Positions 8,268-51,546 of a stretch of DNA of 64,000 nt are shown piece by piece (the stretch's first letter is position 1; every line of letters starts with the position of its first letter). Position numbers and translations under genes: made by a program. Origin of the DNA: an uncultured Alphaproteobacteria bacterium (GTDB lineage Bacteria > Pseudomonadota > Alphaproteobacteria > RF32 > CAG-239); assembly GCA_944392205.1 (NCBI GenBank), contig CALXVV010000039.1, positions 2,368-66,367 of the forward strand, written 5' to 3'. The notes under the pieces were generated by a model that had not been told where the DNA came from, did not search any database, and worked only from the letters and a program-made list of their open reading frames with translations.

Positions 8268-8936
8268 ATGTCGTTTTGTTGCCCAGATAAATCTTGCTCC
8301 CTTTGTCCGAGGTTACTTGAATTTCGTGCTCAAAATGTGGCCAAATTTCCGGCTTATTACAATGGCCCTGTTCCTCCTTTTGGAAGTTTGGAGGCGGAGA
8401 TCTTAATCGTGGGCATGGCTCCCGGCTTAAATGGCGCAAACCAAACGGCCAGACCTTTTACCAATGATTATGCTGGCGATGTTCTTTACCCTATCTTGAA
8501 GGACAATGGGTTTGCCAAGGGTAATTATGGCAAACGTAAAGATGACGGTTTTGAGCTTATTAATGTGAGGGTTACTAATGCCGTGCGTTGCGTGCCGCCG
8601 CAGAATAAGGTTACCGGTGATGAGGTCAAAAATTGCGGACGCTATCTTCAGCAAGAAATAGCCTCAATGCCAAACCTCAAGCTCATCCTTACCCTGGGAG
8701 GTGTTGCTCACAATGCCGTACTCGGAATTTTGGGTTACAAAAAAGCTGCCTATAAATTTGCACATGGTGCTTTGCATTTTCTGCCAAACCACAATTTGAT
8801 GATGCTTAATTCTTATCATACATCGCGCTACAACATCAATACCGGTGTTTTAACCCCGCAGATGTTTGACCGGGTCATCAAGAAAATGAAGGAGTTATTA
8901 ATTACTGATGCCGGCAAAACCCATGAACGCCATTGA
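8268..8936 (+). CDS. Uracil-DNA glycosylase superfamily protein (family 4/5-like, Fe-S type)
   Basis: 222 aa; N-terminal Cys cluster CCPDKSCSLCP; GMAPGLNGANQTARPFTNDYAGD and HTSRYN motifs; SD AAGGAG upstream. Confidence 0.75.
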   Translation: MSFCCPDKSCSLCPRLLEFRAQNVAKFPAYYNGPVPPFGSLEAEILIVGMAPGLNGANQTARPFTNDYAGDVLYPILKDNGFAKGNYGKRKDDGFELINVRVTNAVRCVPPQNKVTGDEVKNCGRYLQQEIASMPNLKLILTLGGVAHNAVLGILGYKKAAYKFAHGALHFLPNHNLMMLNSYHTSRYNINTGVLTPQMFDRVIKKMKELLITDAGKTHERH

Positions 8937-9473
8937 CAGTAAACCTGCCGTAATCAAAGCTATGGGCGTGCCCTGCAAAGCAACCGGTATTTTGGTGTAG
9001 GCCAGTCTTTCTCTGATACCTGCAAAAATGACAATTGCCAGCGTAAAGCCCATGGCGCTTGCTAAGGCGTAGCAAACACCGGCCAGCAGCGTGTAATTTT
9101 TCTGAATTGTCAAAATAGCAATACCTAAAACTGCGCAGTTGGTGGTTATCAGCGGCAAAAATATGCCCAAAGCCTGGTATAATGCCGGAGAGACCTTCTT
9201 GATGATAATTTCCACCATTTGCACCAAGGCGGCAATTACCAAAATAAATGTGACAGTTATCATAAAGGTCAGGTTATAAGGCTGCAAAAACGTGTAATAA
9301 ATCAGAAAAGTTACAATCGTTGATAAGGTCATAACAAACATGACCGCAAAGCCCATGCCGGCTGCCGTTGATATCTTCTTGGACACACCCAAAAACGGGC
9401 AAATTCCTAAAAATTGTGACAAAACAATGTTGTTTACAAAAATTGCGGTGATGAAAATCATTAAATATGCCAT
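8898..9473 (-). CDS. rnfA: Rnf electron-transport complex subunit A
   Basis: 191 aa polytopic; IFVNNIVLSQFLGICPFLGVSKK signature. Confidence 0.9.
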   Translation of the reverse strand: MAYLMIFITAIFVNNIVLSQFLGICPFLGVSKKISTAAGMGFAVMFVMTLSTIVTFLIYYTFLQPYNLTFMITVTFILVIAALVQMVEIIIKKVSPALYQALGIFLPLITTNCAVLGIAILTIQKNYTLLAGVCYALASAMGFTLAIVIFAGIRERLAYTKIPVALQGTPIALITAGLLSMAFMGFAGISN

Positions 9474-9476
9474 ATC

Positions 9477-10085
9477 TTAAGCCCTCCGCAACTTATTAAA
9501 CAATACAATCAGCCCTGCCAAAGCCAGAAAAGCTCCCGGCGGCATAATAAACAGCAACATCGGTGTGGCATCTTCTCCGACAAGCGGGTAGTTAAACACA
9601 GAGCCATTACCCAAAATCTCCCTTACAATTCCAAGAGAGGTCAGCCCAATCGTAAAGCCTATTCCCATGCCGACACCATCTAATATTGACTGCCACAAGT
9701 TATTTTTGGAGGCAAAGGCCTCTGCCCTGCCCAAAATGATGCAGTTTACAACAATGAGCGGAATGAATATACCCAAAGCCGCGTGCAATCCCGGCAGATA
9801 TGCCGACATCAGTAAGTCAATTACGGTGACAAAAGCGGCAATAACCACAATATAAGACGGAATTCTCACCATGGGCGGAATAAAATTCTTGATTAGTGAG
9901 ATGGCTGAGTTTGATAAAATTAACACAAACAAGGTTGCCAATCCCATGCCTAACCCATTGAATGCTGAAGTGGTGACACCTAAAGTCGGGCACATGCCAA
10001 GCAGCATTACAAATGTCGGGTTTTCTTTTATTATTCCTCTGGTCAGGTTCTCATAACTTGTCTTATTCATCTTATTTACCTGCAT
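9477..10085 (-). CDS. rnfE: Rnf complex subunit E
   Basis: 202 aa; [20 protein letters not shown] signature; start may be the internal Met at 10070. Confidence 0.9.
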
Positions 10086-10647
10086 TAAAGTTGTTGTATG
10101 CGTCTACCGCTCTTTGGATAGCGTCTATGACCGCGCGAGATGTTATTGTGGCAGCTGTTATGCCATCTATTTCGCCGCCGTCTTGCTTGACCTTAAATTT
10201 GTGGCGATTGGGATTAAAACCGTCAAACTGATTTTTGAATTTTGGTTCGTCTGCTTTGGAGCCAAGACCTGGTGTTTCTCCGTGCTTTAAGAGTTTGAAG
10301 CTTTTTACGGCGCCGTCTATGTAGAAGCCGACAATCAGGTCTATGCGACCACCAAAGCCGTTGTTTGAATAGGTTTTGATGGCAAACGAGTTGATGTTGC
10401 CCTCTTTCCGGGCCGGGTAGAACTCTAATTTATCTTTTTTATCCGGTGTTGTGATAATCATCTTCTCCGCAAAGGGATCGTTATCAAAATCCGTTACCAC
10501 CTCGGAAATGGCTTCAAGTTGTTTTTGCTCTTGAGCTTTTTTTATGGGCTCTTTGGTGAGGTTGTATACACTTGAAAGAACAAAGGCAGAAAGAACGGCG
10601 ATTGTCGTCAGGGTGATAAGCATTTTCAGAAAAGTCTTATAATTCAT
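10072..10647 (-). CDS. rnfG: Rnf complex subunit G (FMN-binding)
   Basis: 191 aa; N-terminal TM anchor; [12 protein letters not shown] flavinylation motif. Confidence 0.85.
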
Positions 10648-10650
10648 GGC

Positions 10651-11631
10651 TTATCTCCGTTGTCCATAAACTCTGGGCTGCATATATTTATCTATCAGCG
10701 GCACAAAGGCATTCATGATTAGAATGGCAAAAGACACGCCTTCCGGATATGCACTGTATAATCTGATGATTACCGTTAAAATACCGCAACAAACGGCAAA
10801 TAAAATCTGCCCTTTCTTGCTCATGGGTGATGTGGTGTAGTCTGTGGCCATAAATATGGCACCCAACATCAAGCCGCCAGAAAGAATATGCGTGAGAGGA
10901 TCATAGCGGACATCACCGGTGATGAGCCACATTAGCCCGGTGATGGCAAAGACCGTGCCAATATAATAAAAGGGAATGTGCCAGGTGATGACTCTGCGCC
11001 AAAGCATGTAGGCTAAGCCGAGCAACAAGGCAAGAGCTGAAACCTCACCTATACAACCGCCGATATTGCCGATGAACATATCAAAATAGCTTGGCAGTTT
11101 GGCATTGATGTATGTGGCAGAGGTCTGGCCGTCTATGTGCTTTAGGATTCCCAACGTGGTGGCGCCGGTTTGGGCATCCATATCCAAAAACTTCAAAAAT
11201 TCCGGTTTGGGCCAAGATGTCATCTGCACCGGAAAAGATATGAACAAGAACACACGACCGACTAATGCCGGATTAAAAATATTTTTGCCCAGTCCGCCAT
11301 AGCAAAGCTTGCCAACAACGACAGCCATAAAAGCGCCGACCAAAACCATCCATAGAGGAATTGAACTCGGCAGATTATAGGCCAGCAATAAGCCGGTGAC
11401 AATGGCTGAAAAATCTGTTACCGTGTTCTCTTTGTGAAAGCAATAACGATTAAATAAGTACTCAAACCCGGCGCAGGCGGCAACCGATGTCAGAATAACC
11501 AAAAGAGCATTGATGCCGAAAAATAAAACACCGACTAATGCCGCCGGCAACAACGCGATGACAACATCCCTCATCAGGGATTTGGTGTCTTGATTGGTTT
11601 GCATATGGGGTGCAGTTGATATTTTTAACAT
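10651..11631 (-). CDS. rnfD: Rnf complex subunit D
   Basis: 326 aa polytopic; NqrB/RnfD-like, MATDYTTSP region. Confidence 0.9.
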   Translation of the reverse strand: MLKISTAPHMQTNQDTKSLMRDVVIALLPAALVGVLFFGINALLVILTSVAACAGFEYLFNRYCFHKENTVTDFSAIVTGLLLAYNLPSSIPLWMVLVGAFMAVVVGKLCYGGLGKNIFNPALVGRVFLFISFPVQMTSWPKPEFLKFLDMDAQTGATTLGILKHIDGQTSATYINAKLPSYFDMFIGNIGGCIGEVSALALLLGLAYMLWRRVITWHIPFYYIGTVFAITGLMWLITGDVRYDPLTHILSGGLMLGAIFMATDYTTSPMSKKGQILFAVCCGILTVIIRLYSAYPEGVSFAILIMNAFVPLIDKYMQPRVYGQRR

Positions 11632-11633
11632 GG

Positions 11634-12956
11634 TTATTTCTTCTTTTTCAGTTCTATTTTGGCTAATTTACAATAATCCAGAAGCGGTATCCGTGAGGGG
11701 CAGACATAGGAACAACAACCGCATTCAATACAATCTAAAACGCGTGTGTTCTTCACCTCATCTATCTGGCCAGCTCTCATTAGACGGCCGATTAAAAATG
11801 GCTGCAAGCCCATTGGGCAGCCTTCGGCACACTTGCCGCAGCGGATACAATCTTCCTCATGATGTTTGGCAGATATCTTGTCTGAAAGGAGTAAGAGCCC
11901 CGATGTGATTTTGGTGATGGGGGCATTAATATTGAAGGCAGATGTTCCCATCATGGGACCGCCAAATACGACTTGTGCCGTTTGCGGCGTAATTCCTCCT
12001 GCTTTTTCCAGCAGGTATGATGCCGGGGTACCTATTCGCACCAAATAATTGGCCGGGTGCAAGCAAGCATCGCCGCTTACGGTCACAACTCTTTCAAACA
12101 AAGGCTTGTTTTTCATGACCGCTTCATAAATAGCAAAAACCGTACCTACGTTTTGGACCAAGCAACCTGCATCCGCCGGAAGTTTACCGGAGGGAACCTC
12201 GCGGCCGGTGATGGCCGTGATTAATTGCTTTTCGCCTCCTTGCGGGTATTTGGTGGCACAGACCTGAACATTTACGCCAACATAAGTTTTGGTTATCTTG
12301 CTCAGGACTTCGATTGCTTTGGGCTTATTCTCATCTATGGCAATGATGGCGTTTTGAATGCCTAAAATCTTGTTTAATATCTTGGCGCCAATGATAATTT
12401 GCTCGCCTTTTTCTACCATTAGGCGGTCATCAGCGGTTAAAAACGGTTCGCATTCTATACCGTTTAAGATGAGTGTGTCTACCTTTTTGCCTTCCGGAAT
12501 AGAGGTTTTCACCGGGGTGGGATATCCTGCCCCGCCCATACCGACAATACCGGCTTCTCTTATTTTGGCAATAATTTCTTCGGCCGTGTACGGAATCTCT
12601 CTATCAATATCCAAACTTCTGTCAATACTTGGTTCAAACCCGTCGCCTTCAACCTTGATGGTTATCATATCCTCAACATAGCCAAATTCGCCTTCGATGG
12701 CCTCTACTTTTAGGACCTCGCCGGAAACTGAAGAATGGACATCGGCCGAGACAATACCGTCTGCGTCTGCCAAAAGGGTTCCCACCTTTACCTTATCTCC
12801 CGGTTTGACCAGTATTTTGGCCGGGGCGCCGATATGCTGTTTGACCGGAATATAAACCGTTTCCGGCAGACCGGCAAAAATAATCGGCGAATCTGTGGTA
12901 ATCTTATATTTATTCGGATGAATGCCGCCGAGAGGAAACGTTTTTATCTTAGTCAT
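11634..12956 (-). CDS. rnfC: Rnf complex subunit C (short form)
   Basis: Start moved to MTKIKTFPLGGIHP (ATG 12956, 8-nt overlap with rnfB). Two ferredoxin motifs CIRCGKCAEGCP and CIECGCCSYVCP; GMGGAGYPT. Confidence 0.9.
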   Translation of the reverse strand: MTKIKTFPLGGIHPNKYKITTDSPIIFAGLPETVYIPVKQHIGAPAKILVKPGDKVKVGTLLADADGIVSADVHSSVSGEVLKVEAIEGEFGYVEDMITIKVEGDGFEPSIDRSLDIDREIPYTAEEIIAKIREAGIVGMGGAGYPTPVKTSIPEGKKVDTLILNGIECEPFLTADDRLMVEKGEQIIIGAKILNKILGIQNAIIAIDENKPKAIEVLSKITKTYVGVNVQVCATKYPQGGEKQLITAITGREVPSGKLPADAGCLVQNVGTVFAIYEAVMKNKPLFERVVTVSGDACLHPANYLVRIGTPASYLLEKAGGITPQTAQVVFGGPMMGTSAFNINAPITKITSGLLLLSDKISAKHHEEDCIRCGKCAEGCPMGLQPFLIGRLMRAGQIDEVKNTRVLDCIECGCCSYVCPSRIPLLDYCKLAKIELKKKK

Positions 12957-13797
12957 TATTCTTCTCCTCTTTGGTATAAATGATGGCGCCGGTTGGGCAG
13001 GCCTCGCGCAGAGCTTGTCCAAATTCCTCGGCCGAAACTGTATCCGGAATATAGGACAAATTGTTCTCTACCTTTACTTCTGCATTAACTTTGGTGCATT
13101 TTTGGCACGCAATGCAGGCGGCTTTGCAGTTTTTGCGAGCAATGGCGCCTTTTTGGGTGTTGCGGCAAGCAACATAGAGCATTTCTCCGTTTTCGGTCTT
13201 GGGTCTGATTTCAAACAGTCCCCGCGGGCACATCCTTACACAAGCGCCGCAAGATGTGCACTTGTTATGATCTATAATCGGAATGCCGGTCTCTTTATTC
13301 ATGCTTAGGGCGCCGAATTTGCAGACCTTGATGCAATCACCCAAACGCAGGCAGCCTGTCGGACAGCCGGTTTGGCCGCTTGAGATGCGGGCAGCTATGC
13401 GGCAGCTGGTTATATGATCGTAGCTGACTTTTAAGGGCGCGTTTTGGCAAGTGCCGTTGCAACGCAAAACCGCAGCGGTTGGTTTCTTTTCAACCTTGGC
13501 AAAACCACGCAGGGCGGCAATTTGATCCATCACTTGTTGGCCACCGACCGGGCAATACAAGCCGGCAAAGCCTTTCTCATCTACAAAGGCGCAGGCTTGG
13601 GCAAAATCGTGGCAGCCGGCCTTGCCGCAGCCGCCGCAATTGGCCTGGGGCAACAGCGCGTCTATTTCCACAATCTTGACATCTTCGGCGATTGCAAATT
13701 TGCGCGAAACCAAATACAAAACAATGGCAGAAACTATCGCTATTCCGCCTAAAACCAGAACACTTAACAGAACCGTATCGTCCATTTTATAATCCAA
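12949..13797 (-). CDS. rnfB: Rnf complex subunit B (long, multi-[4Fe-4S] form)
   Basis: 282 aa; N-terminal TM; CGGCGKAGC plus several CxxCxxCxxxCP ferredoxin motifs. Confidence 0.85.
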   Translation of the reverse strand: MDYKMDDTVLLSVLVLGGIAIVSAIVLYLVSRKFAIAEDVKIVEIDALLPQANCGGCGKAGCHDFAQACAFVDEKGFAGLYCPVGGQQVMDQIAALRGFAKVEKKPTAAVLRCNGTCQNAPLKVSYDHITSCRIAARISSGQTGCPTGCLRLGDCIKVCKFGALSMNKETGIPIIDHNKCTSCGACVRMCPRGLFEIRPKTENGEMLYVACRNTQKGAIARKNCKAACIACQKCTKVNAEVKVENNLSYIPDTVSAEEFGQALREACPTGAIIYTKEEKNND

Positions 13798-18810: not shown

Positions 18811-18841
18811 AAGAGGTCTCCTTTATGGAGGCCTTTTTTTC
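18811..18841 (+). terminator. Intrinsic terminator, exact second copy of the tRNA-Lys terminator
   Basis: Same hairpin at 18814-18834 + T7. U-run only on plus strand, so it ends a plus-strand transcript rather than panD. Confidence 0.65.
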
Positions 18842-19212
18842 TATGCGGCGATGATGTCTTTTTTCTCAACAACGTGGTTGTTGGCATCCATCTGGACAAT
18901 GGTGGGTTTGTGTTTATCTGCTTCTTCCTCACTCATATAAGCGTAGGCAATGATTATTACCTTATCACCTATAGCGACTTTGCGCGCGGCGGCACCGTTC
19001 AGGCAGATATCTCCCTTGCCCGCCGGCCCCGGAATAACATATGTCGATAATCTTTCGCCATTGTTGATATCAACCACATCAACTTTTTGGTTCTCACGCA
19101 GGTTGGCTTTTTTCATTAAATCTGTGTCTATCGTGATTGAGCCGACATAATTCAAATTGGCATCTGTCACCGTGGCGCGGTGAATCTTAGACAACATCAT
19201 CTCTATTTGCAT
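18841..19212 (-). CDS. panD: Aspartate 1-decarboxylase
   Basis: Start set at [29 protein letters not shown] (ATG 19212, SD GGGGGAGAG); self-processing YVGSITID site and ICLNGAAAR motif. Confidence 0.9.
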
Positions 19213-19259
19213 AGCTGCTCTCCCCCAAGATTTGACGCCTTTATTCAATCACATTTTTC

Positions 19260-30759: not shown

Positions 30760-31923
30760 ATGAAAACGAACATCATTGCAGAGATTAGCAAGTTCCTGCA
30801 GAAGGAGCTTGATAATAAGTGCAACGCTCCTGCCAGACAGGCCGTGTATGAAAAGTTCGGTTTTTTACCCGAACATAAACTGACCTGGTCTGATTGGGCC
30901 ATGATTCTTGATTATGCCCGCATTGTCGGCGGAGCGCGTCCCGGAGATGAATACGGGTATATTGATGCCCGTGGAGAGGTTGCGACCGCTAAGGTCTACG
31001 ATCTCTACAACATCCCCAAGGGCCTTAAGAACCCTTTCCTTGTGTGCTTTAGCGGTTTTATGACCGCGCACCTCTATACCTTTGAGGCTCTGAGGTGGCA
31101 TTATAAGGTTACCGGGGAGTTGTTGCGGATCTTTTGCACCGGTAAGGAGGGAAATAAAGGCCTTTATAAAAAGGTTGTCGAGAGATTAAAGGGGCTTATG
31201 ATCGGGTCCGAGGCAGAAGCATACCTGCGCTGTCTTTCTCTTCTCGGTGACGAGAAGTTCATGCGGCAGTATGAGCGTGCAGTCGCTGATACGGATACCC
31301 ACGGCAACTTCGATGAGATGTATGCCATGGCAAAGAGCCTGGGGCTTAAGGAAGCAACATTCTTGTTGGTTTCCGGCAACCCCACCTACGACAAGCGTCT
31401 TTTGGCCGAGGGAATGCTCCAGCTTCGGGACAAAAAATATGCCGATGTAAAGATTAATCTTTGCATCGTGCACTGCCCTCCCCGATATGACTTTGCGGTA
31501 CCTGAAGGTCACTTGACCGAGATTCTTCTCGGCTACTATGCGGCCTCTCTCGGACCACTGGCCAAGGACACAACGCCACTGTCGTTGTCGCTGAAGCCTC
31601 GTGAGGGTGCTGAGCGATATGCTCTTCCGGGGCTGGAAGATGTGGACTGGAGCGTTTTCCGATCTCTGATCTCGGACTACTCCAACATGGGGTGGCCGAA
31701 TTACCAAGAGCTCCTCTATGGGGTTCCGCACGAAGAGGCTGTGCTTAATATCATTTTATCCGACCTGCGGGCCCGTTCCTGCTTCACCTCGGAGAGCTAC
31801 GATGAGGCGCTGCTTCAGGACATTCGCACCTACCAGAAATTCCTTGGAGGTGCGTATATCCAGGGGGAAAACTTCGAGGAATATCTCGATATGTCTCCTT
31901 ATGTGCCATATTTTCGGCGCTGA
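30760..31923 (+). CDS. Orphan 387-aa protein, compositionally foreign; central region weakly DUF218/YdcF-like
   Basis: Uninterrupted ORF, ~53-58% GC in sampled 60-nt blocks versus ~37-48% in neighbours, AAG/GAG/CTC/CTG codons, no SD. Motif order FLVCFSG..IFCTGKEG..SEAEAYLRCL..DTDTHGNFDEM..FLLVSGNPTYDKR. Confidence 0.65.
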   Translation: MKTNIIAEISKFLQKELDNKCNAPARQAVYEKFGFLPEHKLTWSDWAMILDYARIVGGARPGDEYGYIDARGEVATAKVYDLYNIPKGLKNPFLVCFSGFMTAHLYTFEALRWHYKVTGELLRIFCTGKEGNKGLYKKVVERLKGLMIGSEAEAYLRCLSLLGDEKFMRQYERAVADTDTHGNFDEMYAMAKSLGLKEATFLLVSGNPTYDKRLLAEGMLQLRDKKYADVKINLCIVHCPPRYDFAVPEGHLTEILLGYYAASLGPLAKDTTPLSLSLKPREGAERYALPGLEDVDWSVFRSLISDYSNMGWPNYQELLYGVPHEEAVLNIILSDLRARSCFTSESYDEALLQDIRTYQKFLGGAYIQGENFEEYLDMSPYVPYFRR

Positions 31924-39663: not shown

Positions 39664-39753
39664 GGAGAGGTGGCAGAGCGGTTTAATGCAGCGGTCTTGA
39701 AAACCGTCGTGGGCGCGAGCCCACCGTGAGTTCGAATCTCACCCTCTCCGCCA
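39664..39753 (+). tRNA. tRNA-Ser (anticodon UGA), long variable arm, CCA encoded
   Basis: GGAGAGG...CCTCTCC acceptor, anticodon loop CT-TGA-AA, variable arm GTGGGCGCGAGCCCAC, T-arm GTGAG-TTCGAAT-CTCAC. Confidence 0.9.
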
Positions 39754-39758
39754 ATACT

Positions 39759-39783
39759 AAGCCCCGCTTTTTAGCGGGGTTTA
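39759..39783 (+). terminator. Hairpin terminator after tRNA-Ser
   Basis: GCCCCGC (39761-39767) / GCGGGGT (39774-39780) then TT; overlaps stop of the convergent 133-aa ORF. Confidence 0.55.
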
Positions 39784-40182
39784 ATATCTTCCAGAAAACC
39801 AAGCCCTTTTTCCTCTATCATATAATGCTTTTACATTTCCACTTGAACCGGTGATCGCTGTAATATTTCTTTTCTTCTCAGGATTATTTTTGATAAACTC
39901 TTTATCATACTGCCTATATTTTTTTCTTTCTATTAAGACGCCACCTACTTGCCACTTGCTTAAGGGTACACTGTTCAGGTTGCTTTGAAACTTTTTATTG
40001 CGGCGAACTTCAGGTACTTCCCCACATATAACATCTCTTAACTCCTGCAATTTTTCGGCAGAGTTCATATCAAAGTCCTTAACCTTTGCATTTTCGCCCC
40101 GAGTTAAATCCGTAAACTCTTTGGTCTTTATAAATTCTTCAAAAGCTTTCCATTCCGGTGAATTTTTTGTATCTGATATCAT
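39781..40182 (-). CDS. Hypothetical protein (133 aa), AT-rich
   Basis: Start set at MISDTKNSPEW (ATG 40182) because of SD AAGGGAG 8 nt upstream; no motif recognised. Confidence 0.5.
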   Translation of the reverse strand: MISDTKNSPEWKAFEEFIKTKEFTDLTRGENAKVKDFDMNSAEKLQELRDVICGEVPEVRRNKKFQSNLNSVPLSKWQVGGVLIERKKYRQYDKEFIKNNPEKKRNITAITGSSGNVKALYDRGKRAWFSGRY

Positions 40183-40295
40183 CTTTTTGCTCCCTTTAGC
40201 ATAATTGATGATACCATACAACAGGCCTCTTAACAATCTTTTAATGCCACAAAAAAAGACCCGCGGGCGCAAAAGCACCGGCAGGTCTGAACTCA

Positions 40296-41411
40296 CTACT
40301 TTTCCTTTCTGGAAAGCTTTGCTACATTGGCTTTGGCCAGCTCCAGCTCATGAGGGGTAAGAACATCCGTGTTACTCTTCTCAAGGTAGGTGATGATGTC
40401 CTCTATATCCTCATAGCTGCCCGGCGCCATTCCCTTCTCTGTCTGACGCAGATACAAAGAGTAGTTCTCCATATCCGTCAGCAGCAGAAGTTTGCAACGC
40501 TGCATCAGGCGGCCCTCTGCAGGCAGAAGCTCCGCTTTTCTGAATGTTTCGAAATCAAGGAACTTTATTAACTCAACATTCTCAAGCCTGGAGGCTATGC
40601 CTCTGGTTTGAAGCCATTTGACCGTCTCTTGCGGACACTTTTTGAAGCTGCAGAGAAACATTGCCCTTTGCAAATCTTCAAATTTGCTATCCACACCCTT
40701 TTGAACAATCTCTATTTGCAGACGGTTCAGGAGGTAGGCGACCTGGCTAAAATTGCTCCAGGTTCGCTTTTGGTAGACTTTGCACAGAATCGCCCACAAC
40801 TCGGCATCGCCACCGAACAGCACATCAAACTTCGGTTTGAGGTAGTGCGGCATCATCATGTTGTGAACACCGGGCGTGACATGGTGCAGAGCGGCAATAT
40901 ACTCTCCTCTCTTGCAGAGGTCTTTGGCCACGGTGGAAGACATGTGACTCACCTCATCATTGGTGTGCATGAGATGATAGTTTTGCCTCGTGAGAGGATA
41001 GTTGCGGATGCTGAACTGAAGAAGAATGCGATCTTCCAACTCTTCCTCAATGTGGATATCCGTATCATTGCGGACACCGCGAATCATGTCCGTGGCGCCA
41101 CAGCGGATGGCCGTATCAACAACCTCGCCTTTGATGGCGACAACCTGTACGATCTCCGGATTTTGGCGGATACGTTCAATAATCTCGTTGCGGAACTGGA
41201 CCGGACCGCATTTGAACTTGAGGATATCCTCAATGCTCTGACGCGCCATCTTTACTCGTTCTTCTTGCGAAAAATCGCAATTGACAAACATCCCATCTTC
41301 TACGCCGATGATGATTTTTTCGTTCTCTCTGAGCGTGCGGATAAGAATGTTTAAATGCCCGCGGGTGAAGGGATCAAACAGCCCGCTGTAAAAAGCAACG
41401 CTTCCTTTCAT
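40296..41411 (-). CDS. CoaD-like (phosphopantetheine adenylyltransferase-type) nucleotidyltransferase fused to unknown ~190-aa C-terminal domain; compositionally foreign
   Basis: 371 aa. N-half aligns by eye to E. coli CoaD: FYSGLFDPFTRGHLNIL (GTFDPITNGH), ATDMIRGVRNDTD (LIRGLRAVAD), SHMSSTVAKDL (ISSSLVKEV). ~53-57% GC in sampled blocks; no SD. Confidence 0.75.
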   Translation of the reverse strand: MKGSVAFYSGLFDPFTRGHLNILIRTLRENEKIIIGVEDGMFVNCDFSQEERVKMARQSIEDILKFKCGPVQFRNEIIERIRQNPEIVQVVAIKGEVVDTAIRCGATDMIRGVRNDTDIHIEEELEDRILLQFSIRNYPLTRQNYHLMHTNDEVSHMSSTVAKDLCKRGEYIAALHHVTPGVHNMMMPHYLKPKFDVLFGGDAELWAILCKVYQKRTWSNFSQVAYLLNRLQIEIVQKGVDSKFEDLQRAMFLCSFKKCPQETVKWLQTRGIASRLENVELIKFLDFETFRKAELLPAEGRLMQRCKLLLLTDMENYSLYLRQTEKGMAPGSYEDIEDIITYLEKSNTDVLTPHELELAKANVAKLSRKEK

Positions 41412-41458: not shown

Positions 41459-41536
41459 AACATAAATTCGGGCTCTCTATTTGTCAATCTTTTATATTTT
41501 TTATTTGTTGACAAAATTTGCCAACAATGCTATAAA
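41459..41536. promoter_or_regulatory. Back-to-back divergent sigma70-type promoters built on an inverted repeat
   Basis: Plus: TTGACA 41508-41513, 17 nt, TATAAA 41531-41536. Minus: TTGACA (complement of 41482-41487), 17 nt, TATGTT (complement of 41459-41464). The -35 boxes sit within IR TTTGTCAA/TTGACAAA. Confidence 0.55.
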
Positions 41537-47249: not shown

Positions 47250-50200
47250 TTACTCCATTTTATCCAAAGTCTTGGCCAGAATATAGTAGAGCTTACCAAT
47301 GTCGGCTCCGGAAACAACGGAGAGCAAAAGCCCTGAATGTTCGTGGCTTTTGGCAGCACTGATGAGCTGTTCAAACTCTGAAAGATATGCATTAACCTGG
47401 CTGCGGAAGTCCTCGTTTTTCTCGTATTCTTTTCTGATGGCCGCAACCTGGGACCTGCTCATATTCTTTGCCAGATAGCGCACGAATACTGCCGTATCTC
47501 CGCCATAGAATTTCTTCCACAAATCTTCTTCATCTTTTGGATTAAATACTCGATTGATGTCTACGGAAATGCTTTCCAATTTTTCAATAATCATTCCGGC
47601 TTGTTTTAAGAAGCCTTCTATCTGGATTCCCTGGTAAGCCGTTGTCAAATTCTTCAGAGTATTATCCGCCTTGCGTGTATGCTCGTTCAACTCCTTAATC
47701 TGGCTGCTTATAGTCTCATTGAAGCGCAGAGCCTCTTTGATGATATTATCACTGTTTAGGCTGAAATCTTTGCTGGTCTCAAGCAGGCTGCCCATGGCCG
47801 AATTTACCTTGGCTACCGTATCATCGGTGGCGGCTACTAAGGCATTGGATTGTTTCAAAAATACCTCGCCGGAGCCTAAAATATCATTAGATATTCTTTC
47901 CGCATTGGCGGCAATCTCGCTGATGGAGGCTCTCAGCTTATCTCCGGAATTGACCAGATGAGCAGCACTTACCTTGGCGGCATCTTCCATTTGCAAGCCC
48001 AGATTCTTCAAATCTTTGCCCAAGCCTTTTACTTTGTCATAAGCCTGGTTGGCTCTTTCTGCCAGTTGGTTTGAAGTGTCATTCAGCACTGTGTTAAAGC
48101 AATCTACCAATTTTTTGGTATCATCAGAGATCATTATCATCTTATCACTCTGAGCCGCTATAAGTTTATTTATTTCCATAACGCTGGTGCTTGTTTCCGC
48201 TGTTACCGTATTGAAACCTGCCGTATATTTTTCGTATTCCTTAAATATATTGCCAATCTTTTCAACCGATTGTTTAACCGCTCCGTCTAAGTCCTCCTCT
48301 GTTTGTGACAACAATAAGTTAACTTGATCTAGGCTCTTCATGGAGTTTTTGGATGTCTTGCTAACATCTTCTCCGGCCTTTATCAATCTGTCTCCCAAAA
48401 CATCAAACTCGTAGGCCAGCTTGGTGGATGTATCAAAAATGCCATTGGTGTTGTTCTGGAAGCTCTCGTTTATCTCTTTCATCTTTTGAGCCACATTGAC
48501 CGCGGCATCTGACAAATATTTGTATTGCTGTGCTAAAGAGGCCTCGCCCAGACGGCTTTGGGTTGCCAGAGTATTGGAAACCTCTGTCATTGCCTCTGCC
48601 TGTGATGACAACATCTTATTGATATCTTCACTTTGGTTTTGGGCCTTTACAACCGCCAAATCTATGTTCTTGGCATGTTCGTCCAGCAATTTACTGATAT
48701 TAGCACCGGTCTTGGATAGCTCTGTTTCCGCTGTTTGAAGCTTGTTGCAGCTTTCCATAATGCCCTTGGCGCTGTCTTTTCCTTGTTCATCCATCTTTTT
48801 GGCGGCACCATTGAAGATATTTACCTGTTCCAAAATCTTGCCGGATATACTGCCGAGATTGTCAGAGATATCTTCAACCATCTTCTTAACTGCCGTATTC
48901 TTAGCCTCTACCATGGCCTCAATTTCTGATAAGCGGTCTATCGAACGGTGCGAATCATTTACCACTGCCTCCGTATGACGAGAAGTATCTTCTTCAAGCA
49001 TGGTCATACGTGTAAATACTTTGTCAGCGCTCTGCTCTATGATACCTACCTGTTTCTTTAACGCCTCACTCATATTTTCCGCATTGTCTGCAATCTTGTC
49101 ACAGAAATTGTAAAACTCGGTTTCTTGCTGTTTGAACAACGTATTTAATGCTGCTGCTTTTTCATCCAAGCCTGCCGCCACATTAGCCGTGTATTCCGTT
49201 GTTGAGCGTGAAATCTCGTGCAAAGCCTTGCTCTGTTCATCAAAATCATTAGCCGCTTTTTTGAAGGATTCCAGAGCAGATGCCGTTGCTTCGTTTACTT
49301 CTTTGTTTTGACGGCTCAAGATATTCTCTATTCCGGAAACCCTGTCAGAAACTGTCTGGCTTAGTATTTCTATATTCTGATTTTGTGTCGTCAAGACATT
49401 TTCAAACTGCGTTACCTTGGCCAAAGTTCTGTTTGCTGAGGTATCAAATTGGTTGGCCTGCTCTGTCAGATTGTCATTAATGGCTTTGCTCTTGTTTATT
49501 ACTTCATTACAAGAAGTAAGCATGGATGTTAAACTATCTTTCAGATTATCAACCGCTGTTGCTGCATTGCTTTCCAACGCTGTTGATGCATTAGACAGTT
49601 CTTCAAGCTGGCGTTTTAGTTCCGCTCTGATTTCTTCTACTCGGGCAGCGCTATTGGTTATGTTCTTATGCTGCTGCGCCAAAGAAGCCTCGCTTACTTG
49701 GCTTTGCGCAACAACAACAGACGTTGCTTCATTCAGAGAAGTACTGCAACGATTCATATTCTCAGATACCTCAGACATGGCAGCAATAGATGTTTCTGAA
49801 TTTTTCTTGACATTTGCTGCCGCTCCGTTGACCTCGTTGTTTAGAGCTTGAATTTGTACCGAAACATCCGAAATTGTTTCTTTGATGTATTGGCGACGGG
49901 TCTGTAGGTCCTCTCCGATTGTGCTTGCTTGTTCCATGGCTTCTGTTGCCAGCTTTTGCAGAGCCTCTGTCTTTTCTTCCAACCCCTTGATGTAGCCGTT
50001 TAAATCTTCTTTGGCAACCAACGTCTTGTTTTGCAATGAATCTATATTGTTCTCCAGTTCATCGTCTACCTTTTGCATTGCGCTGATGGCTTGTTCGGAA
50101 ACATTGCTCAAATTATTGACCTGAATAGCAATACTGTCCTCAAGATTACTTCCTCTAACCATCAACTTATCAAGTTCTTGAGCCAAAATGTCTCCGTGGT

Positions 50201-51431
50201 TGGATAGCTTCTTGTTTATGTTATCAGCATGTTCATCCAAGCTTGAAATCAGCTCTACAACATCGTGATTGTGTTTTGACATATTGTCATCAACTCGTTT
50301 GATTTGCAAAGCCACGGAATCATCCAACCCATCTATTCCTTTCAGAATATGCTCGTTTATGGTTTCTATATTGGCTAATGTTCGTTTGGAGAGCTCATCA
50401 ACTTTGCCGCGCATGATGTTGCCACTTTCAGATATTGCTTTTTCTAGCTTTGATGTATGCTCCTCAAGGGTGCCGGCCATGCTCTCAACTTCTGAGGATA
50501 CTGTCTTCTTCAACAAACCACAATTGGTTACGGCTGCCGCCGATATTTGTTGCAATGTTTGCGACTGAGCATTTAGTGCTTCGCTGACCATGTTCAGATT
50601 TGCGGTTGTCTCATCATTGAACTGCTTTAGCATTTCATTGGCGTGGATGATATCATGATTGCTGGCATCTGAAATCTCATGTAAAAATTCGGCCGAAGTC
50701 TTTATCTCCTTGAGCTTGGGCAAAATCTTTTCAAACAAGCCATCCAGGCTTTGTTCTATCTCCAATGCCCCGCTGGCAAACGCTTTGTTTAATCCTGAAA
50801 ACGTCTCAGCCGAGTTTTGAGCTTTGTCCGTAATATTCTCAAAATTCTGGGTTAAAAATTTGACACCGTCGCTTAATTCAACAATCGTTTTGGAGGAATA
50901 ATTATCCAAAATGGCTACCAACTTGGTAAACTCGTTGATGTTTTCTTTTATCTCATCTTTAATCTTTGCCGTCTGAATGGTGGCCATTTTGCTCACTTCT
51001 TGCAGCTCAACAACTTGGGAACGTATGGCATCAGCCATGGCTTTGGCTGTTTGGGGAGCGCCTTCTTCAGGGTATACCAACTGGTTCATGTAGGCTCTTA
51101 AAAACTTCGCCTCTTGCTTAAAAGATGTGCCTCTGTCTATGTAGGCCATAACAACCCAGATAATCGCCAGTGGCAATGTAATACCCGCCAAAAAGCCGCC
51201 AAACTCGTCTGGCATCATCAAAAAGAGATTATCCCACCCAAAAAACTGGGTGATGTATATCAAGACAATGGCAAACCATATTGCACTCACGCCTATCATC
51301 AGTTTGTGCAAGTTGTTATTTAGCCACGAGGGTTTCTCCTCTATCTCTACCGAGTGAGGTGCCTCATTCATAAATTGCGGAAGAGTTTCAGCCGAGACAG
51401 CGTTGCGGCTTTCTTTGTTCTTTTCAGACAT
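47250..51431 (-). CDS. Giant membrane-anchored coiled-coil protein (~1393 aa)
   Basis: Start set at MSEKNKESRN (ATG 51431, GGGGAA 6 nt upstream). Two TM helices near N-terminus, ~1100 aa of heptad-like N/S/E/K/A/Q-rich sequence, globular C-terminus (WKKFYGGDTAVFVRYLAKNM...). Confidence 0.75.
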   Translation of the reverse strand: MSEKNKESRNAVSAETLPQFMNEAPHSVEIEEKPSWLNNNLHKLMIGVSAIWFAIVLIYITQFFGWDNLFLMMPDEFGGFLAGITLPLAIIWVVMAYIDRGTSFKQEAKFLRAYMNQLVYPEEGAPQTAKAMADAIRSQVVELQEVSKMATIQTAKIKDEIKENINEFTKLVAILDNYSSKTIVELSDGVKFLTQNFENITDKAQNSAETFSGLNKAFASGALEIEQSLDGLFEKILPKLKEIKTSAEFLHEISDASNHDIIHANEMLKQFNDETTANLNMVSEALNAQSQTLQQISAAAVTNCGLLKKTVSSEVESMAGTLEEHTSKLEKAISESGNIMRGKVDELSKRTLANIETINEHILKGIDGLDDSVALQIKRVDDNMSKHNHDVVELISSLDEHADNINKKLSNHGDILAQELDKLMVRGSNLEDSIAIQVNNLSNVSEQAISAMQKVDDELENNIDSLQNKTLVAKEDLNGYIKGLEEKTEALQKLATEAMEQASTIGEDLQTRRQYIKETISDVSVQIQALNNEVNGAAANVKKNSETSIAAMSEVSENMNRCSTSLNEATSVVVAQSQVSEASLAQQHKNITNSAARVEEIRAELKRQLEELSNASTALESNAATAVDNLKDSLTSMLTSCNEVINKSKAINDNLTEQANQFDTSANRTLAKVTQFENVLTTQNQNIEILSQTVSDRVSGIENILSRQNKEVNEATASALESFKKAANDFDEQSKALHEISRSTTEYTANVAAGLDEKAAALNTLFKQQETEFYNFCDKIADNAENMSEALKKQVGIIEQSADKVFTRMTMLEEDTSRHTEAVVNDSHRSIDRLSEIEAMVEAKNTAVKKMVEDISDNLGSISGKILEQVNIFNGAAKKMDEQGKDSAKGIMESCNKLQTAETELSKTGANISKLLDEHAKNIDLAVVKAQNQSEDINKMLSSQAEAMTEVSNTLATQSRLGEASLAQQYKYLSDAAVNVAQKMKEINESFQNNTNGIFDTSTKLAYEFDVLGDRLIKAGEDVSKTSKNSMKSLDQVNLLLSQTEEDLDGAVKQSVEKIGNIFKEYEKYTAGFNTVTAETSTSVMEINKLIAAQSDKMIMISDDTKKLVDCFNTVLNDTSNQLAERANQAYDKVKGLGKDLKNLGLQMEDAAKVSAAHLVNSGDKLRASISEIAANAERISNDILGSGEVFLKQSNALVAATDDTVAKVNSAMGSLLETSKDFSLNSDNIIKEALRFNETISSQIKELNEHTRKADNTLKNLTTAYQGIQIEGFLKQAGMIIEKLESISVDINRVFNPKDEEDLWKKFYGGDTAVFVRYLAKNMSRSQVAAIRKEYEKNEDFRSQVNAYLSEFEQLISAAKSHEHSGLLLSVVSGADIGKLYYILAKTLDKME

Positions 51432-51546
51432 TTTGTTCCCCATTGTCAATAATATTCCCCTGCCTTTTCCTAGGCTTTCCGTATCTTAAAACATTATTTT
51501 TAAATTGGGAATATCTTAACTTAACTTCTTTGCACTTATCCACACC

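What the first reader, a model, noticed from the sequence alone, without database searches (positions are those of the whole stretch)
40296..41411. CoaD-like nucleotidyltransferase fused to an unknown ~190-aa domain, with foreign composition
Residues 1-180 align by eye with phosphopantetheine adenylyltransferase. The matches are GxFDPxTxGH, the RG(L/V)R segment and the C-terminal (I/M)SS(S/T) motif. There is an extra insertion, followed by ~190 aa I cannot place.

The C-terminal domain loosely follows the helix pattern of an HD-type phosphohydrolase, but the His/Asp positions are replaced (WSNFSQV, FLCSFKK).

Sampled 60-nt blocks are ~53-57% GC, against ~37-48% nearby. The gene prefers G/C-ending codons, has no Shine-Dalgarno sequence, and has its own TTGACA-17-TATGTT promoter. 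A canonical 160-aa coaD would be expected elsewhere in the genome, so this looks like an acquired enzyme of new architecture, not housekeeping CoA synthesis.
Basis: partly seen in the sequence, partly recalled or inferred. Interest (0 to 1): 0.6.

Follow-up and report, generated by a model that had tools for sequence, protein, structure and literature searches.

The report
Diverged CoaD enzyme with dead HD domain
This gene was inherited by descent, not acquired: it is a fast-diverged copy of a little-known fusion between the coenzyme-A enzyme CoaD and an HD-type hydrolase, it keeps its ATP-using core, and it has lost the hydrolase's metal site and the usual substrate-holding residues.

Summary
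The 371-aa ORF at 40296..41411 (-) is real. Residues 1-195 form a CoaD/PPAT-type nucleotidyltransferase, and Foldseek matches are all PPATs. Residues 196-371 are a degenerate HD-domain fold (hhalign 99.2% to intact relatives).

The "acquired, foreign, new architecture" reading fails. The gene sits at the same chromosomal position in six related uncultured gut Alphaproteobacteria. In the most distant of these (L012), that position holds a CoaD-HD protein with intact motifs. About 100 protein clusters share the fusion, and two also carry dephospho-CoA kinase (CoaE). This ties the family to CoA synthesis.

What is unusual is the divergence of this clade of 18 proteins. The ATP and catalytic residues are kept. 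Every residue on the phosphopantetheine side is replaced (T10L, A37E, K42 lost, L73E, N106I/V). The HD metal ligands are gone in all 18. The TIGR01510 score is 67 against a cut-off of 103.3. dN/dS of 0.10-0.17 indicates purifying selection, so the gene appears functional.

GC is only mildly raised (48.7% against 43.6%; GC3 0.60).

My best reading is an active adenylyltransferase, probably still PPAT, with a non-catalytic HD relic. A shift to a new acceptor substrate is nearly as likely. I could not check whether a second coaD exists elsewhere in the genome.

The parts
40296..41411 (-). CDS of 371 aa (stop codon at 40296-40298): diverged CoaD-HD fusion protein
   Evidence: ORF list. 100% match to P0001, with 19 homologs of the same clade. 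dN/dS is 0.10-0.17 against orthologs.
40827..41411 (-). Residues 1-195: CoaD/PPAT-type nucleotidyltransferase domain
   Evidence: PF01467 E=1e-9. TIGR01510 67 bits, below the 103.3 cut-off. Foldseek top 50 hits are all PPAT. Residue map against E. coli PPAT.
41355..41384 (-). GLFDPFTRGH (residues 10-19): (H/T)xGH nucleotide-binding motif. The catalytic His19 is kept. The Thr10-equivalent position is Leu11.
41148..41228 (-). Residues 62-88: clade-specific insertion relative to canonical CoaD. The AF2 model places an extra helix at residues 74-83. Q72, R74, R80 and P85 are invariant.
   Evidence: Alignment. AF2 secondary structure.
41070..41081 (-). RGVR (residues 111-114), equivalent to PPAT Arg88-Gly89-x-Arg91, which bind the ATP phosphates
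   Evidence: Residue roles from PMC12784347.
40932..40943 (-). MSST (residues 157-160), equivalent to PPAT Ile127-Ser128-Ser129-Ser130
40299..40826 (-). Residues 196-371: all-helical HD-fold domain with the metal-ligand set lost
   Evidence: AF2 pLDDT 83. Top Foldseek hits are HD proteins, though none is individually significant. The profile finds intact HD relatives. hhalign gives 99.2%, E=1.9e-19.
40740..40760 (-). WSNFSQV (residues 218-224): relic of the YHNLSH motif (His to Ser219, His to Gln223)
40644..40664 (-). AMFLCSF (residues 250-256): relic of the A-x-F-(F/Y)-H-D motif (His-Asp to Cys254-Ser255)
40545..40559 (-). LDFET (residues 285-289): relic of the T-(K/D)-H motif (His to Phe287)
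40473..40499 (-). RCKLLLLTD (residues 305-313): relic of the H-D-L-D-L-A-I-L motif. The first Asp is Arg305 in 18 of 18 clade members. The second Asp is Lys307 here.
41459..41487 (-). Promoter-like TTGACA-17 nt-TATGTT
   Evidence: Scan, 10 of 12 matches. Both hexamers and the spacing are conserved in L001-L004.
41503..41516 (.). TTTTGTCAACAAAT: conserved 5-2-5 palindrome (TTTGT-CA-ACAAA) about 16 nt upstream of the -35 element; possible regulator binding site
   Evidence: Invariant in all five aligned upstream regions, including the distant L004. Occurs once in the window.
40251..40288 (-). Hairpin plus U7 run starting 8 nt after the stop codon: likely intrinsic terminator, which would make the gene monocistronic
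   Evidence: RNA fold dG -25.2 kcal/mol, z = -2.78. The simple terminator scanner did not flag it.

Best explanation
The gene is the vertically inherited, fast-diverged ortholog of a CoaD-HD fusion protein found in uncultured gut Alphaproteobacteria.

Shown:
- It occupies the ancestral chromosomal position of an intact CoaD-HD gene.
- Its N-terminal Rossmann-type domain keeps the complete ATP-binding and catalytic set of phosphopantetheine adenylyltransferase: His19, Arg111, Gly112, Arg114, Asp118, Glu122 and Ser158-Ser159-Thr160.
- Its C-terminal domain is an HD fold in which every metal-liganding His/Asp is replaced, so it cannot be a metal-dependent phosphohydrolase.
- It is under purifying selection.
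- It appears to be its own transcription unit: it has a conserved promoter-like site and a predicted terminator hairpin right after the stop codon.

Inferred:
- The N-domain still transfers AMP from ATP to a phosphate-bearing acceptor. The acceptor is most probably still 4'-phosphopantetheine, giving dephospho-CoA, held in a remodelled pocket.
- The HD relic serves as a non-catalytic scaffold or ligand-binding module.
- In intact relatives the HD domain probably acts as an accessory diphosphatase or phosphatase in CoA synthesis, by analogy with the NadD-YqeK proofreading fusion. This clade has given up that activity.
For: Synteny:
- The same flanking genes (1399-aa protein, Dus, TrkA, Hfq, HflX, lipoprotein | gene | SLT_2 transglycosylase, RlpA, PBP5, Tmk, HolB) occur in L001-L005 and in L012.
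- In L012 the slot holds P0022, which has intact HD motifs and the Ser10 and Lys42 equivalents.

Link to CoA synthesis:
- TIGR01510 scores are 160.8 bits for P0037, 139.7 for P0129, 106.3 for P0026 and 99.8 for P0022.
- P0098 and P0129 are also fused to CoaE (TIGR00152).

Catalytic core:
- Residues equivalent to E. coli Y7, G9, F11, D12, G17, H18, R88, G89, R91, D95, E99, S128 and S129 are kept unchanged throughout the clade, and position 130 stays Ser or Thr.
- Foldseek hits are PPAT only.

Dead HD domain:
- 0 of 18 clade members keep the His of the HD motif, and 0 of 18 keep the T-x-H His.
- The first Asp is Arg in 18 of 18. In the 73 other family members the six core metal-ligand positions are intact in 58-71.
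- HD homology: hhalign 99.2%. The intact relatives hit PDB HD proteins 3b57, 3gw7 and 3dto. Foldseek top ranks are HD proteins.

Selection: dN/dS is 0.17, 0.12 and 0.10 against L001, L002 and L003.

Pathway and mutants:
- PanD (aspartate decarboxylase) is in the window at 18841..19248, which suggests pantothenate and CoA synthesis is in use.
- T10A and K42A mutants of H. pylori PPAT keep substantial activity, so loss of these side chains alone does not abolish PPAT (PMC12784347).

Analogy: NadD-YqeK is a nucleotidyltransferase plus HD diphosphatase with a proofreading role (PMC9426524).
Against: - All residues on the acceptor side of PPAT are replaced together, by new residues that are fixed or nearly so at most positions: T10 to L, A37 to E, K42 deleted or variable, L73 to E, M74 to V/I, N106 to I/V. 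Two new glutamates in a normally hydrophobic pocket fit a changed acceptor better than pantetheine.
- The TIGR01510 score falls to 41-74 bits in the clade.
- The clade sits on a long stem branch. It is only 28% identical to its positional ortholog, while the flanking genes are 61-71% identical.
- The gene's dN/dS is roughly 2-4 times the typical value for its neighbours. That would be easier to explain if another PPAT had relieved the constraint.
- I could not see the rest of the genome, so a second coaD is not excluded.
- The function of the intact HD domain is unknown. The YqeK analogy is an analogy only, and the HD subfamily here is a different one.
Confidence: 0.5

Rival explanations
1. 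Neofunctionalised ex-CoaD. After the split from the L012-like lineage, another enzyme took over PPAT. This copy evolved in place into an ATP-dependent nucleotidyltransferase for a different acceptor, possibly a cationic or polar one. The metal-less HD relic was re-used as a binding domain.
For: - The whole acceptor-side residue set is replaced together, by new residues that are fixed or nearly so (L11, E38, E96), while the ATP site is untouched.
- The HD ligands were lost at the same time, with an invariant Arg305 at a former metal-binding Asp.
- There is a long stem branch followed by conservation within the clade. Identity to the positional ortholog is 28%, against 61-71% for the flanking genes.
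- TIGR01510 scores are 41-74 bits against a 103.3 cut-off.
- Within the family, the reciprocal degenerate form also exists: P0042 and P0048 have lost the nucleotidyltransferase motifs but keep an intact HD domain. The two domains can therefore be lost independently.
Against: - No second coaD was seen in the window or in the flanks of L001-L005. This covers only about 64 kb plus roughly 10 kb either side of the gene in each locus.
- T10A and K42A PPAT mutants remain active.
- No candidate acceptor is suggested by the neighbourhood, because the gene appears monocistronic.
Confidence: 0.35
2. Non-catalytic pseudoenzyme or slowly decaying gene. Both domains have lost their original activities, and the protein survives as a regulator or scaffold, or is on the way to loss.
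For: - Constraint is relaxed relative to the neighbours, with higher dN/dS.
- The C-terminal half evolves about twice as fast as the N-terminal half (dN 0.72 against 0.36 versus L004).
- The HD site is destroyed.
Against: - dN/dS stays at 0.10-0.17.
- 79 columns are invariant across 18 proteins that are as little as 47% identical. These include every ATP-site residue.
- The ORF is intact in all loci, and the promoter is conserved.
Confidence: 0.1
3. One reading: a horizontally acquired enzyme of novel architecture, possibly part of a mobile or defence island.
For: - GC is 48.7% against 43.6%, and GC3 0.60 is the top of the window.
- A tRNA-Ser gene lies about 540 nt downstream of the stop codon, and this spot holds a variable island in L012.
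- dS against L003 is 0.69, while flanking genes give 0.08-0.42. This suggests the allele was exchanged by recombination.
Against: - The gene is syntenic in six loci that span 61-99% identity in the flanking proteins.
- Its nearest outgroup in the tree is its positional ortholog.
- There is no PADLOC hit and no full-length match in phages or plasmids.
- The GC3 excess is absent in L003 and L005.
- The dS pattern indicates exchange between alleles within the lineage, not foreign origin.
Confidence: 0.03

Closest known systems
Bacterial phosphopantetheine adenylyltransferase (CoaD/PPAT; TIGR01510, PF01467)
   Same: - The fold is the same (Foldseek TM 0.70-0.85 to PPAT structures).
- It has the (H/T)xGH His, the RGxR motif, the Asp95 and Glu99 equivalents, and the SS(S/T) motif.
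   Different: - It is 371 aa rather than about 160 aa, has an insertion of about 25 aa, and carries a C-terminal HD-like domain.
- The residues that hold the 4'-phosphate and the pantetheine arm are replaced (T10, K42, A37, L73, M74, N106).
- It scores 67 bits, below the curated cut-off of 103.3.
Uncharacterised CoaD-HD fusion family. NCBI names members 'adenylyltransferase/cytidyltransferase family protein' and JGI names them 'pantetheine-phosphate adenylyltransferase'. Examples: P0022, P0026, P0088, P0100, and the CoaE-containing P0098 and P0129.
   Same: - The two-domain architecture and domain order are the same.
- The profile search and hhalign show homology in both halves.
- P0022 lies at the same chromosomal position.
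   Different: - Family members keep the YHNLSH, F(F/Y)HD, T(K/D)H and DLDL motifs, and the Ser/Thr10, Lys42, Leu73 and Asn106 equivalents.
- The window's clade has lost all of these.
- I found no paper describing the family.
NadD-YqeK fusion or operon: NaMN adenylyltransferase plus an HD-domain diphosphatase that proofreads wrong dinucleotides and hydrolyses Ap4A
   Same: It joins a nucleotidyltransferase of the same superfamily to an HD-domain hydrolase within a cofactor pathway. The HD domain is accessory and the transferase is essential (PMC9426524).
   Different: - It belongs to a different cofactor pathway.
- The HD subfamily differs. The relatives here match Lin1889 (3b57), YedJ (3gw7) and BH2835 (3dto), not YqeK.
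- In the window protein the HD site is destroyed, so no proofreading hydrolysis is possible.
Eukaryotic CoA synthase (COASY, a PPAT-DPCK fusion)
   Same: It also fuses the last CoA-pathway enzymes. P0098 and P0129 in this family likewise join CoaD and CoaE.
   Different: The window protein has no kinase domain. COASY has no HD domain. This comparison rests on general knowledge of COASY and was not tested here.

Membership tests
Bacterial PPAT / CoaD (TIGR01510) | Rossmann-type nucleotidyltransferase fold that superposes on PPAT | tested here: met
   AF2 model pLDDT 86.6. Foldseek PDB top 50 hits are all PPAT, with TM 0.70-0.85 normalised to the target.
Bacterial PPAT / CoaD (TIGR01510) | (H/T)xGH motif with the catalytic His, plus the RGxR, Asp95/Glu99 and ISS(S/T) residues for ATP binding | tested here: met
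   TRGH at 16-19, R111-G112-V113-R114, D118, E122 and M157-S158-S159-T160. The ATP-site residues are invariant in 18 of 18 clade members.
Bacterial PPAT / CoaD (TIGR01510) | Ligands of the 4'-phosphopantetheine phosphate and arm (Thr/Ser10, Lys42, Leu73/Met74, Asn106) | tested here: not met
   These positions are L11, a variable or deleted segment, E96, V97 and I/V. Residue roles come from PMC12784347. Arg88, the third phosphate ligand, is kept.
Bacterial PPAT / CoaD (TIGR01510) | Score above the curated equivalog cut-off | tested here: not met
   67.0 bits against a cut-off of 103.3. Other clade members score 41.5-74.4.
Bacterial PPAT / CoaD (TIGR01510) | PPAT activity, or being the only coaD in the genome | not testable with these tools
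   Only 64 kb of the genome and about 10 kb either side of the gene in relatives could be read. No second coaD is present there.
HD-domain metal-dependent phosphohydrolase superfamily | Homology to, and fold of, the HD domain | tested here: met
   - The profile of residues 196-371 finds intact HD relatives at E=1e-13 to 1e-4 among 1.8 billion proteins.
- hhalign gives 99.2%, E=1.9e-19.
- The relatives hit PDB HD proteins.
- Foldseek top ranks are HD proteins, but each E-value is 0.1 or higher.
HD-domain metal-dependent phosphohydrolase superfamily | The H...HD...(H)...D metal-ligand signature | tested here: not met
   Window residues at the ligand positions are S219, Q223, C254-S255, F287, R305 and K307. 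The HD His and the T-x-H His are absent in 18 of 18 clade members.
CoaD-HD fusion family (uncharacterised) | N-terminal CoaD-like domain followed by this HD subfamily in one polypeptide of about 350-420 aa | tested here: met
   In the tree, the clade nests beside P0022, P0038 and P0039.
CoaD-HD fusion family (uncharacterised) | Orthology with an intact member (same chromosomal position) | tested here: met
   L012 has the same upstream and downstream gene order. Flanking proteins are 61-71% identical.
NadD-YqeK-type transferase plus proofreading HD hydrolase | An active HD diphosphatase partnered with the nucleotidyltransferase | tested here: not met
   The HD ligands are absent in the window protein. 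The feature may hold for intact relatives, but that was not tested.
NadD-YqeK-type transferase plus proofreading HD hydrolase | HD domain of the YqeK (COG1713) subfamily | tested here: inconclusive
   No YqeK entry is evident among the descriptions of the top 50 Foldseek hits. Sequence hits are to Lin1889, YedJ and BH2835. I made no direct comparison with YqeK.
Anti-phage defence system or mobile-element cargo | Match to a defence-system model, or presence on phages or plasmids | tested here: not met
   PADLOC gave 0 hits. In phages and plasmids only the N-domain matches ordinary coaD, at 30% identity or less and about 50% coverage. The only PHROG hit covers residues 6-62.

The most novel reading that the evidence does not exclude
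An enzyme of an essential pathway, CoaD fused to an accessory HD hydrolase, was converted in place within one gut alphaproteobacterial lineage. It became a nucleotidyltransferase with a new acceptor, not yet identified. The two invariant new glutamates in the pocket hint at a cationic or polar substrate. The metal-less HD relic, with an invariant Arg at the former metal site, was re-used as a phosphate- or ligand-binding module. This would be a new enzymatic activity. It would also imply that the wider CoaD-HD(-CoaE) family hides an undescribed accessory step in CoA synthesis, such as proofreading or diphosphatase activity.
Probability: 0.3. Interest if true: 0.6.

Novelty: new variant of a known kind. 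Interest (0 to 1): 0.4.

Why it matters
- Annotation. Pipelines would label this protein a generic 'cytidylyltransferase-like' protein, or wrongly call it CoaD. It is actually a CoaD-HD ortholog with a dead HD site and a remodelled acceptor pocket.
- CoA biology. The wider CoaD-HD family includes fusions with CoaE, and I found no paper describing it. By analogy with NadD-YqeK, it may point to a proofreading or accessory hydrolase in CoA synthesis.
- Enzyme evolution. Positional orthologs with intact (L012) and degenerate (window clade) motifs make a clean natural pair. They allow study of how a housekeeping enzyme changes or loses function without moving in the genome.
- It is not a defence gene, a mobile gene or a foreign gene.

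Tried and rejected
- Sequence searches of the C-terminal half against Pfam and PDB found nothing, either with the single sequence or with a 14-sequence profile. Homology appeared only through the profile search of 1.8 billion representatives.
- Foldseek with the full-length model returned only PPAT hits, which masked the C-domain. Foldseek with the C-domain alone gave no individually significant hit (best E=0.12), only a consistent enrichment of HD proteins.
- PADLOC, PHROGs, and phage and plasmid tblastn gave no support for a defence or mobile origin.
- A tblastn search for a second coaD, using E. coli CoaD written from memory and the gene's own N-domain, covered the window and L001-L005. It found only the gene itself.
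- I could not inspect the remainder of the MAGs.
- I wanted to test whether P0048-like proteins (transferase motifs lost, HD intact) occur in the same organism.
- The metatranscriptome evidence is one 210-nt contig with 10 mismatches at 40777-40970. It is too weak to claim expression.
- Literature searches for a CoaD-HD fusion or for COG4339 found nothing.
- The 171-aa ORF that appears to overlap the stop codon (GTG at 40296) is probably an artefact at its 5' end. The terminator hairpin lies inside that stretch. A start at the ATG at 40182, which has a Shine-Dalgarno and a TG-extended promoter-like site, fits the homolog alignment.
Full report
**Observation**

The window has an ORF at 40296..41411 on the minus strand that encodes 371 aa.
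- Pfam finds only CTP_transf_like (PF01467, E=1e-9, residues 8-160).
- NCBIfam's best model is coaD (TIGR01510) at 67 bits, well below its curated cut-off of 103.3.
- phmmer against PDB sequences hits only PPATs, and mainly the first 60 residues.
- An AlphaFold2 model built on 18 homologs is confident (pLDDT 86.6, pTM 0.87). Its top 50 Foldseek PDB matches are all phosphopantetheine adenylyltransferases, with TM 0.70-0.85 normalised to the target.
There is also an insertion at 62-88 that the model partly folds as an extra helix.
- By comparison with E. coli CoaD, the PPAT domain runs to about residue 195. The conserved LHHVTPGVHN stretch belongs to it.

**Composition and signals**

- Gene GC is 48.7% against 43.6% for the window. 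Only 2% of equal-sized windows reach that value.
- The 60-nt blocks range from 35% to 63%, not a uniform 53-57%.
- GC3 is 0.602 against 0.478 +/- 0.047 for the window's larger ORFs. It is tied for highest with ORF 30760..31923.
- The excess is also seen in L001 and L002, weakly in L004, and not in L003 or L005.
- The promoter-like TTGACA-17-TATGTT exists at 41487..41459. Both hexamers are conserved out to the distant L004, as is an upstream palindrome TTTGTCAACAAA.
- There is no Shine-Dalgarno, but only 46% of ORFs here show one by the same crude test.
- A hairpin plus U7 run (dG -25.2 kcal/mol, z = -2.8) follows the stop codon. If the promoter and hairpin are functional, the gene is a single transcription unit.

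**The C-terminal domain**

Residues 196-371 are all-helical. They have no Pfam or PDB sequence match, even as a profile.
- A separate AF2 model has pLDDT 83. It gives no significant Foldseek hit. Even so, the top PDB and viral ranks are almost all HD-domain phosphohydrolases: 2pjq, 3b57, 2pq7, SAH, RelH, 2qgs, 1xx7, Mesh1, YGK1, and phage 'HDc' or 'phosphohydrolase' entries.
- The decisive result is a profile search of 1.8 billion representative proteins. It gave 30 hits. Most are proteins of 356-420 aa with the same architecture, but with intact YHNLSH, F(F/Y)HD, T(K/D)H and DLDLAIL motifs. The rest include stand-alone HD proteins of 200-250 aa.
- hhalign between the clade's C-domain and the stand-alone relatives gives 99.2% probability and E=1.9e-19 over 152 columns.
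- Those relatives hit PDB HD proteins Lin1889 (3b57), YedJ (3gw7) and BH2835 (3dto).
- In the window protein the ligand positions read S219, Q223, C254-S255, F287, R305 and K307.
- Across the clade's 18 proteins, the HD His and the T-x-H His are absent in all 18, and the first Asp of DxD is Arg in all 18. The 73 other family members keep the six core metal-ligand positions in 58-71 cases.

**Distribution and origin**

- The exact clade is small: 20 clusters among 5.8 billion proteins. Five GTDB species genomes carry it, and all are uncultured Alphaproteobacteria MAGs.
- Near-identical DNA occurs in chicken-gut and other gut or manure metagenomes.
- In all five loci the gene lies between the Dus-TrkA-Hfq-HflX block and the SLT_2-RlpA-PBP5-Tmk-HolB block, or a rearranged version of this in L005.
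- In an NJ tree, the clade's nearest relatives are P0022, P0038 and P0039.
- P0022 lies in a contig (L012) with the same flanking genes on both sides. Those flanks are 61-71% identical to the window's proteins, but P0022 is only 28% identical to the window protein.
- P0022 has intact HD motifs and the Ser10 and Lys42 equivalents, and scores 99.8 bits on TIGR01510.
- The window gene is therefore the positional ortholog of an intact CoaD-HD gene. It diverged in place and was not acquired.
- No full-length match exists in 50,697 phage or 72,556 plasmid records, and PADLOC finds nothing.

**The wider family**

- A search with the intact member P0026 finds about 100 clusters. Those carrying a source name are labelled 'adenylyltransferase/cytidyltransferase family protein [Alphaproteobacteria bacterium]', a [Lactobacillaceae bacterium] MAG, a hypothetical protein, or 'pantetheine-phosphate adenylyltransferase'.
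- They sit in ordinary housekeeping neighbourhoods.
- Two members are triple fusions with dephospho-CoA kinase: P0098 (CoaE-CoaD-HD) and P0129 (CoaD-HD-CoaE). Both of their enzyme domains score strongly.
- This ties the family to the last two steps of CoA synthesis.
- I found no paper on the fusion.
- The nearest characterised analogue is NadD-YqeK. There, an HD diphosphatase fused or clustered with a nucleotidyltransferase of the same superfamily proofreads wrong dinucleotides (PMC9426524). The HD subfamily here is a different one.

**What changed in the window's clade**

I mapped E. coli PPAT positions onto a 92-sequence alignment.
- The ATP and catalytic set is kept in both the clade and the wider family: Y7, G9, F11, D12, G17, H18, R88, G89, R91, D95, E99, S128, S129 and S/T130.
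- The acceptor-side positions are replaced only in the clade: T/S10 to L, A/G37 to E, K42 deleted or variable, L73 to E, M/T74 to V/I, and N106 to I/V. E38, E96 and (nearly) L11 are fixed in the clade; the 74- and 106-equivalents are V/I or I/V.
- According to PMC12784347, Thr10, Lys42, Leu74 and Arg88 hold the 4'-phosphate of phosphopantetheine. T10A and K42A mutants keep substantial activity, whereas R88A is dead.
- The substitutions therefore weaken the case for PPAT activity but do not exclude it.

**Selection**

- dN/dS is 0.17, 0.12 and 0.10 against L001, L002 and L003. The neighbours typically give 0.02-0.09.
- Against L004, dN is 0.36 for the N-domain and 0.72 for the C-domain. Most neighbours give 0.09-0.22.
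- The gene is under purifying selection but less constrained than its neighbours. Most of the change lies on the stem branch.
- Against L003, the gene's dS is 0.69 (1.2 in the N-domain). Flanking genes give 0.08-0.42. Together with the GC3 differences between alleles, this points to allele exchange by recombination within the lineage. That may also explain the raised GC3, which is my inference.

**Interpretation**

- I commit to an active adenylyltransferase whose HD domain is a non-catalytic relic.
- It is most probably still the lineage's PPAT (confidence 0.5). PanD in the window suggests the pathway is used, and no second coaD was found in the sequence available.
- The main rival is that it has taken on a new acceptor while another gene supplies PPAT (0.35). 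The concerted remodelling of the pocket favours this.
- A non-catalytic pseudoenzyme (0.1) and horizontal acquisition (0.03) are less likely.
- The decisive computation is a scan of the full MAGs for another coaD. I could not run it here.

**Verdict**

The 'foreign, acquired, novel architecture' interpretation is wrong. The gene is a new variant of a known enzyme kind within an undescribed but sizeable fusion family. Interest is moderate.

Noticed in passing
window 39664-39753 (+): A tRNA-Ser(UGA) gene lies between the small ORF and the SLT_2 transglycosylase gene. It shows up as a depth spike of 100-366x when metagenome contigs are laid on the region.
   Followed up: partly
window 39781-40182 (-), listed as 39781-40296: - A small hydrophilic ORF, probably 133 aa from the ATG at 40182. 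It has a Shine-Dalgarno, a TG-extended TTGTTA-17-TATCAT promoter-like site and its own terminator.
- Its GC is the lowest in the window (37.6%) and it evolves fast (72% identity in L003, 32% in L004).
- It is present in L001-L004 but absent in L005 and L012.
- The only match is a sub-threshold DUF5824 hit. There is no PHROG or PADLOC hit.
   Followed up: partly
L012 11125-16623: In the outgroup genome, the slot between the CoaD-HD gene and SLT_2 holds an insert of about 5.5 kb. Its genes carry HMUDK_hel, hexapeptide transferase, tubulin/FtsZ-like, WYL, DUF2157 and GDYXXLXY domains. This position, next to the tRNA-Ser gene in the window, therefore appears to be a variable hotspot.
   Followed up: no
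window 41503-41516: The palindrome TTTGT-CA-ACAAA lies upstream of the gene's promoter. It is invariant in five lineages although the surrounding intergenic DNA has diverged in L004. It may be a regulator binding site, and it occurs once in the window.
   Followed up: partly
P0042, P0048 (loci L016, L017): These relatives show the reciprocal degeneration. The nucleotidyltransferase motifs are lost (no (H/T)xGH, no TIGR01510 or PF01467 hit), while the HD motifs are intact. P0120-P0122 are a third degenerate form of 303 aa. The two domains of this family can decay independently.
   Followed up: partly
P0098, P0129: These are triple fusions of dephospho-CoA kinase with CoaD-HD, in both domain orders. 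They amount to a bacterial counterpart of a PPAT-DPCK fusion with an extra HD domain.
   Followed up: partly
window 30760-31923 (+): A 387-aa ORF with high overall GC for the window (51.3%) and GC3 of 0.601. It has no Pfam or PHROG match. It is conserved at 95% in L003.
   Followed up: no
window 40296-41411 compared with L003: Synonymous divergence of this gene (0.69; 1.2 in the N-domain) and of the small ORF (0.57) is several times that of most flanking genes (0.08-0.42). This indicates a recombined, more divergent allele at this locus.
   Followed up: partly
window 18841-19248 (-), 8898-13022 (-), 61221-61550 (+): - Aspartate 1-decarboxylase PanD (PF02261, E=1e-51).
- An Rnf-type electron-transport gene cluster.
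- A permuted tmRNA, which is typical of Alphaproteobacteria by general knowledge.
   Followed up: partly
window 47250-51449 (-): A 1399-aa protein with only a sub-threshold ATG17_like match. It is conserved and syntenic in all relatives, at 50-93% identity.
   Followed up: no
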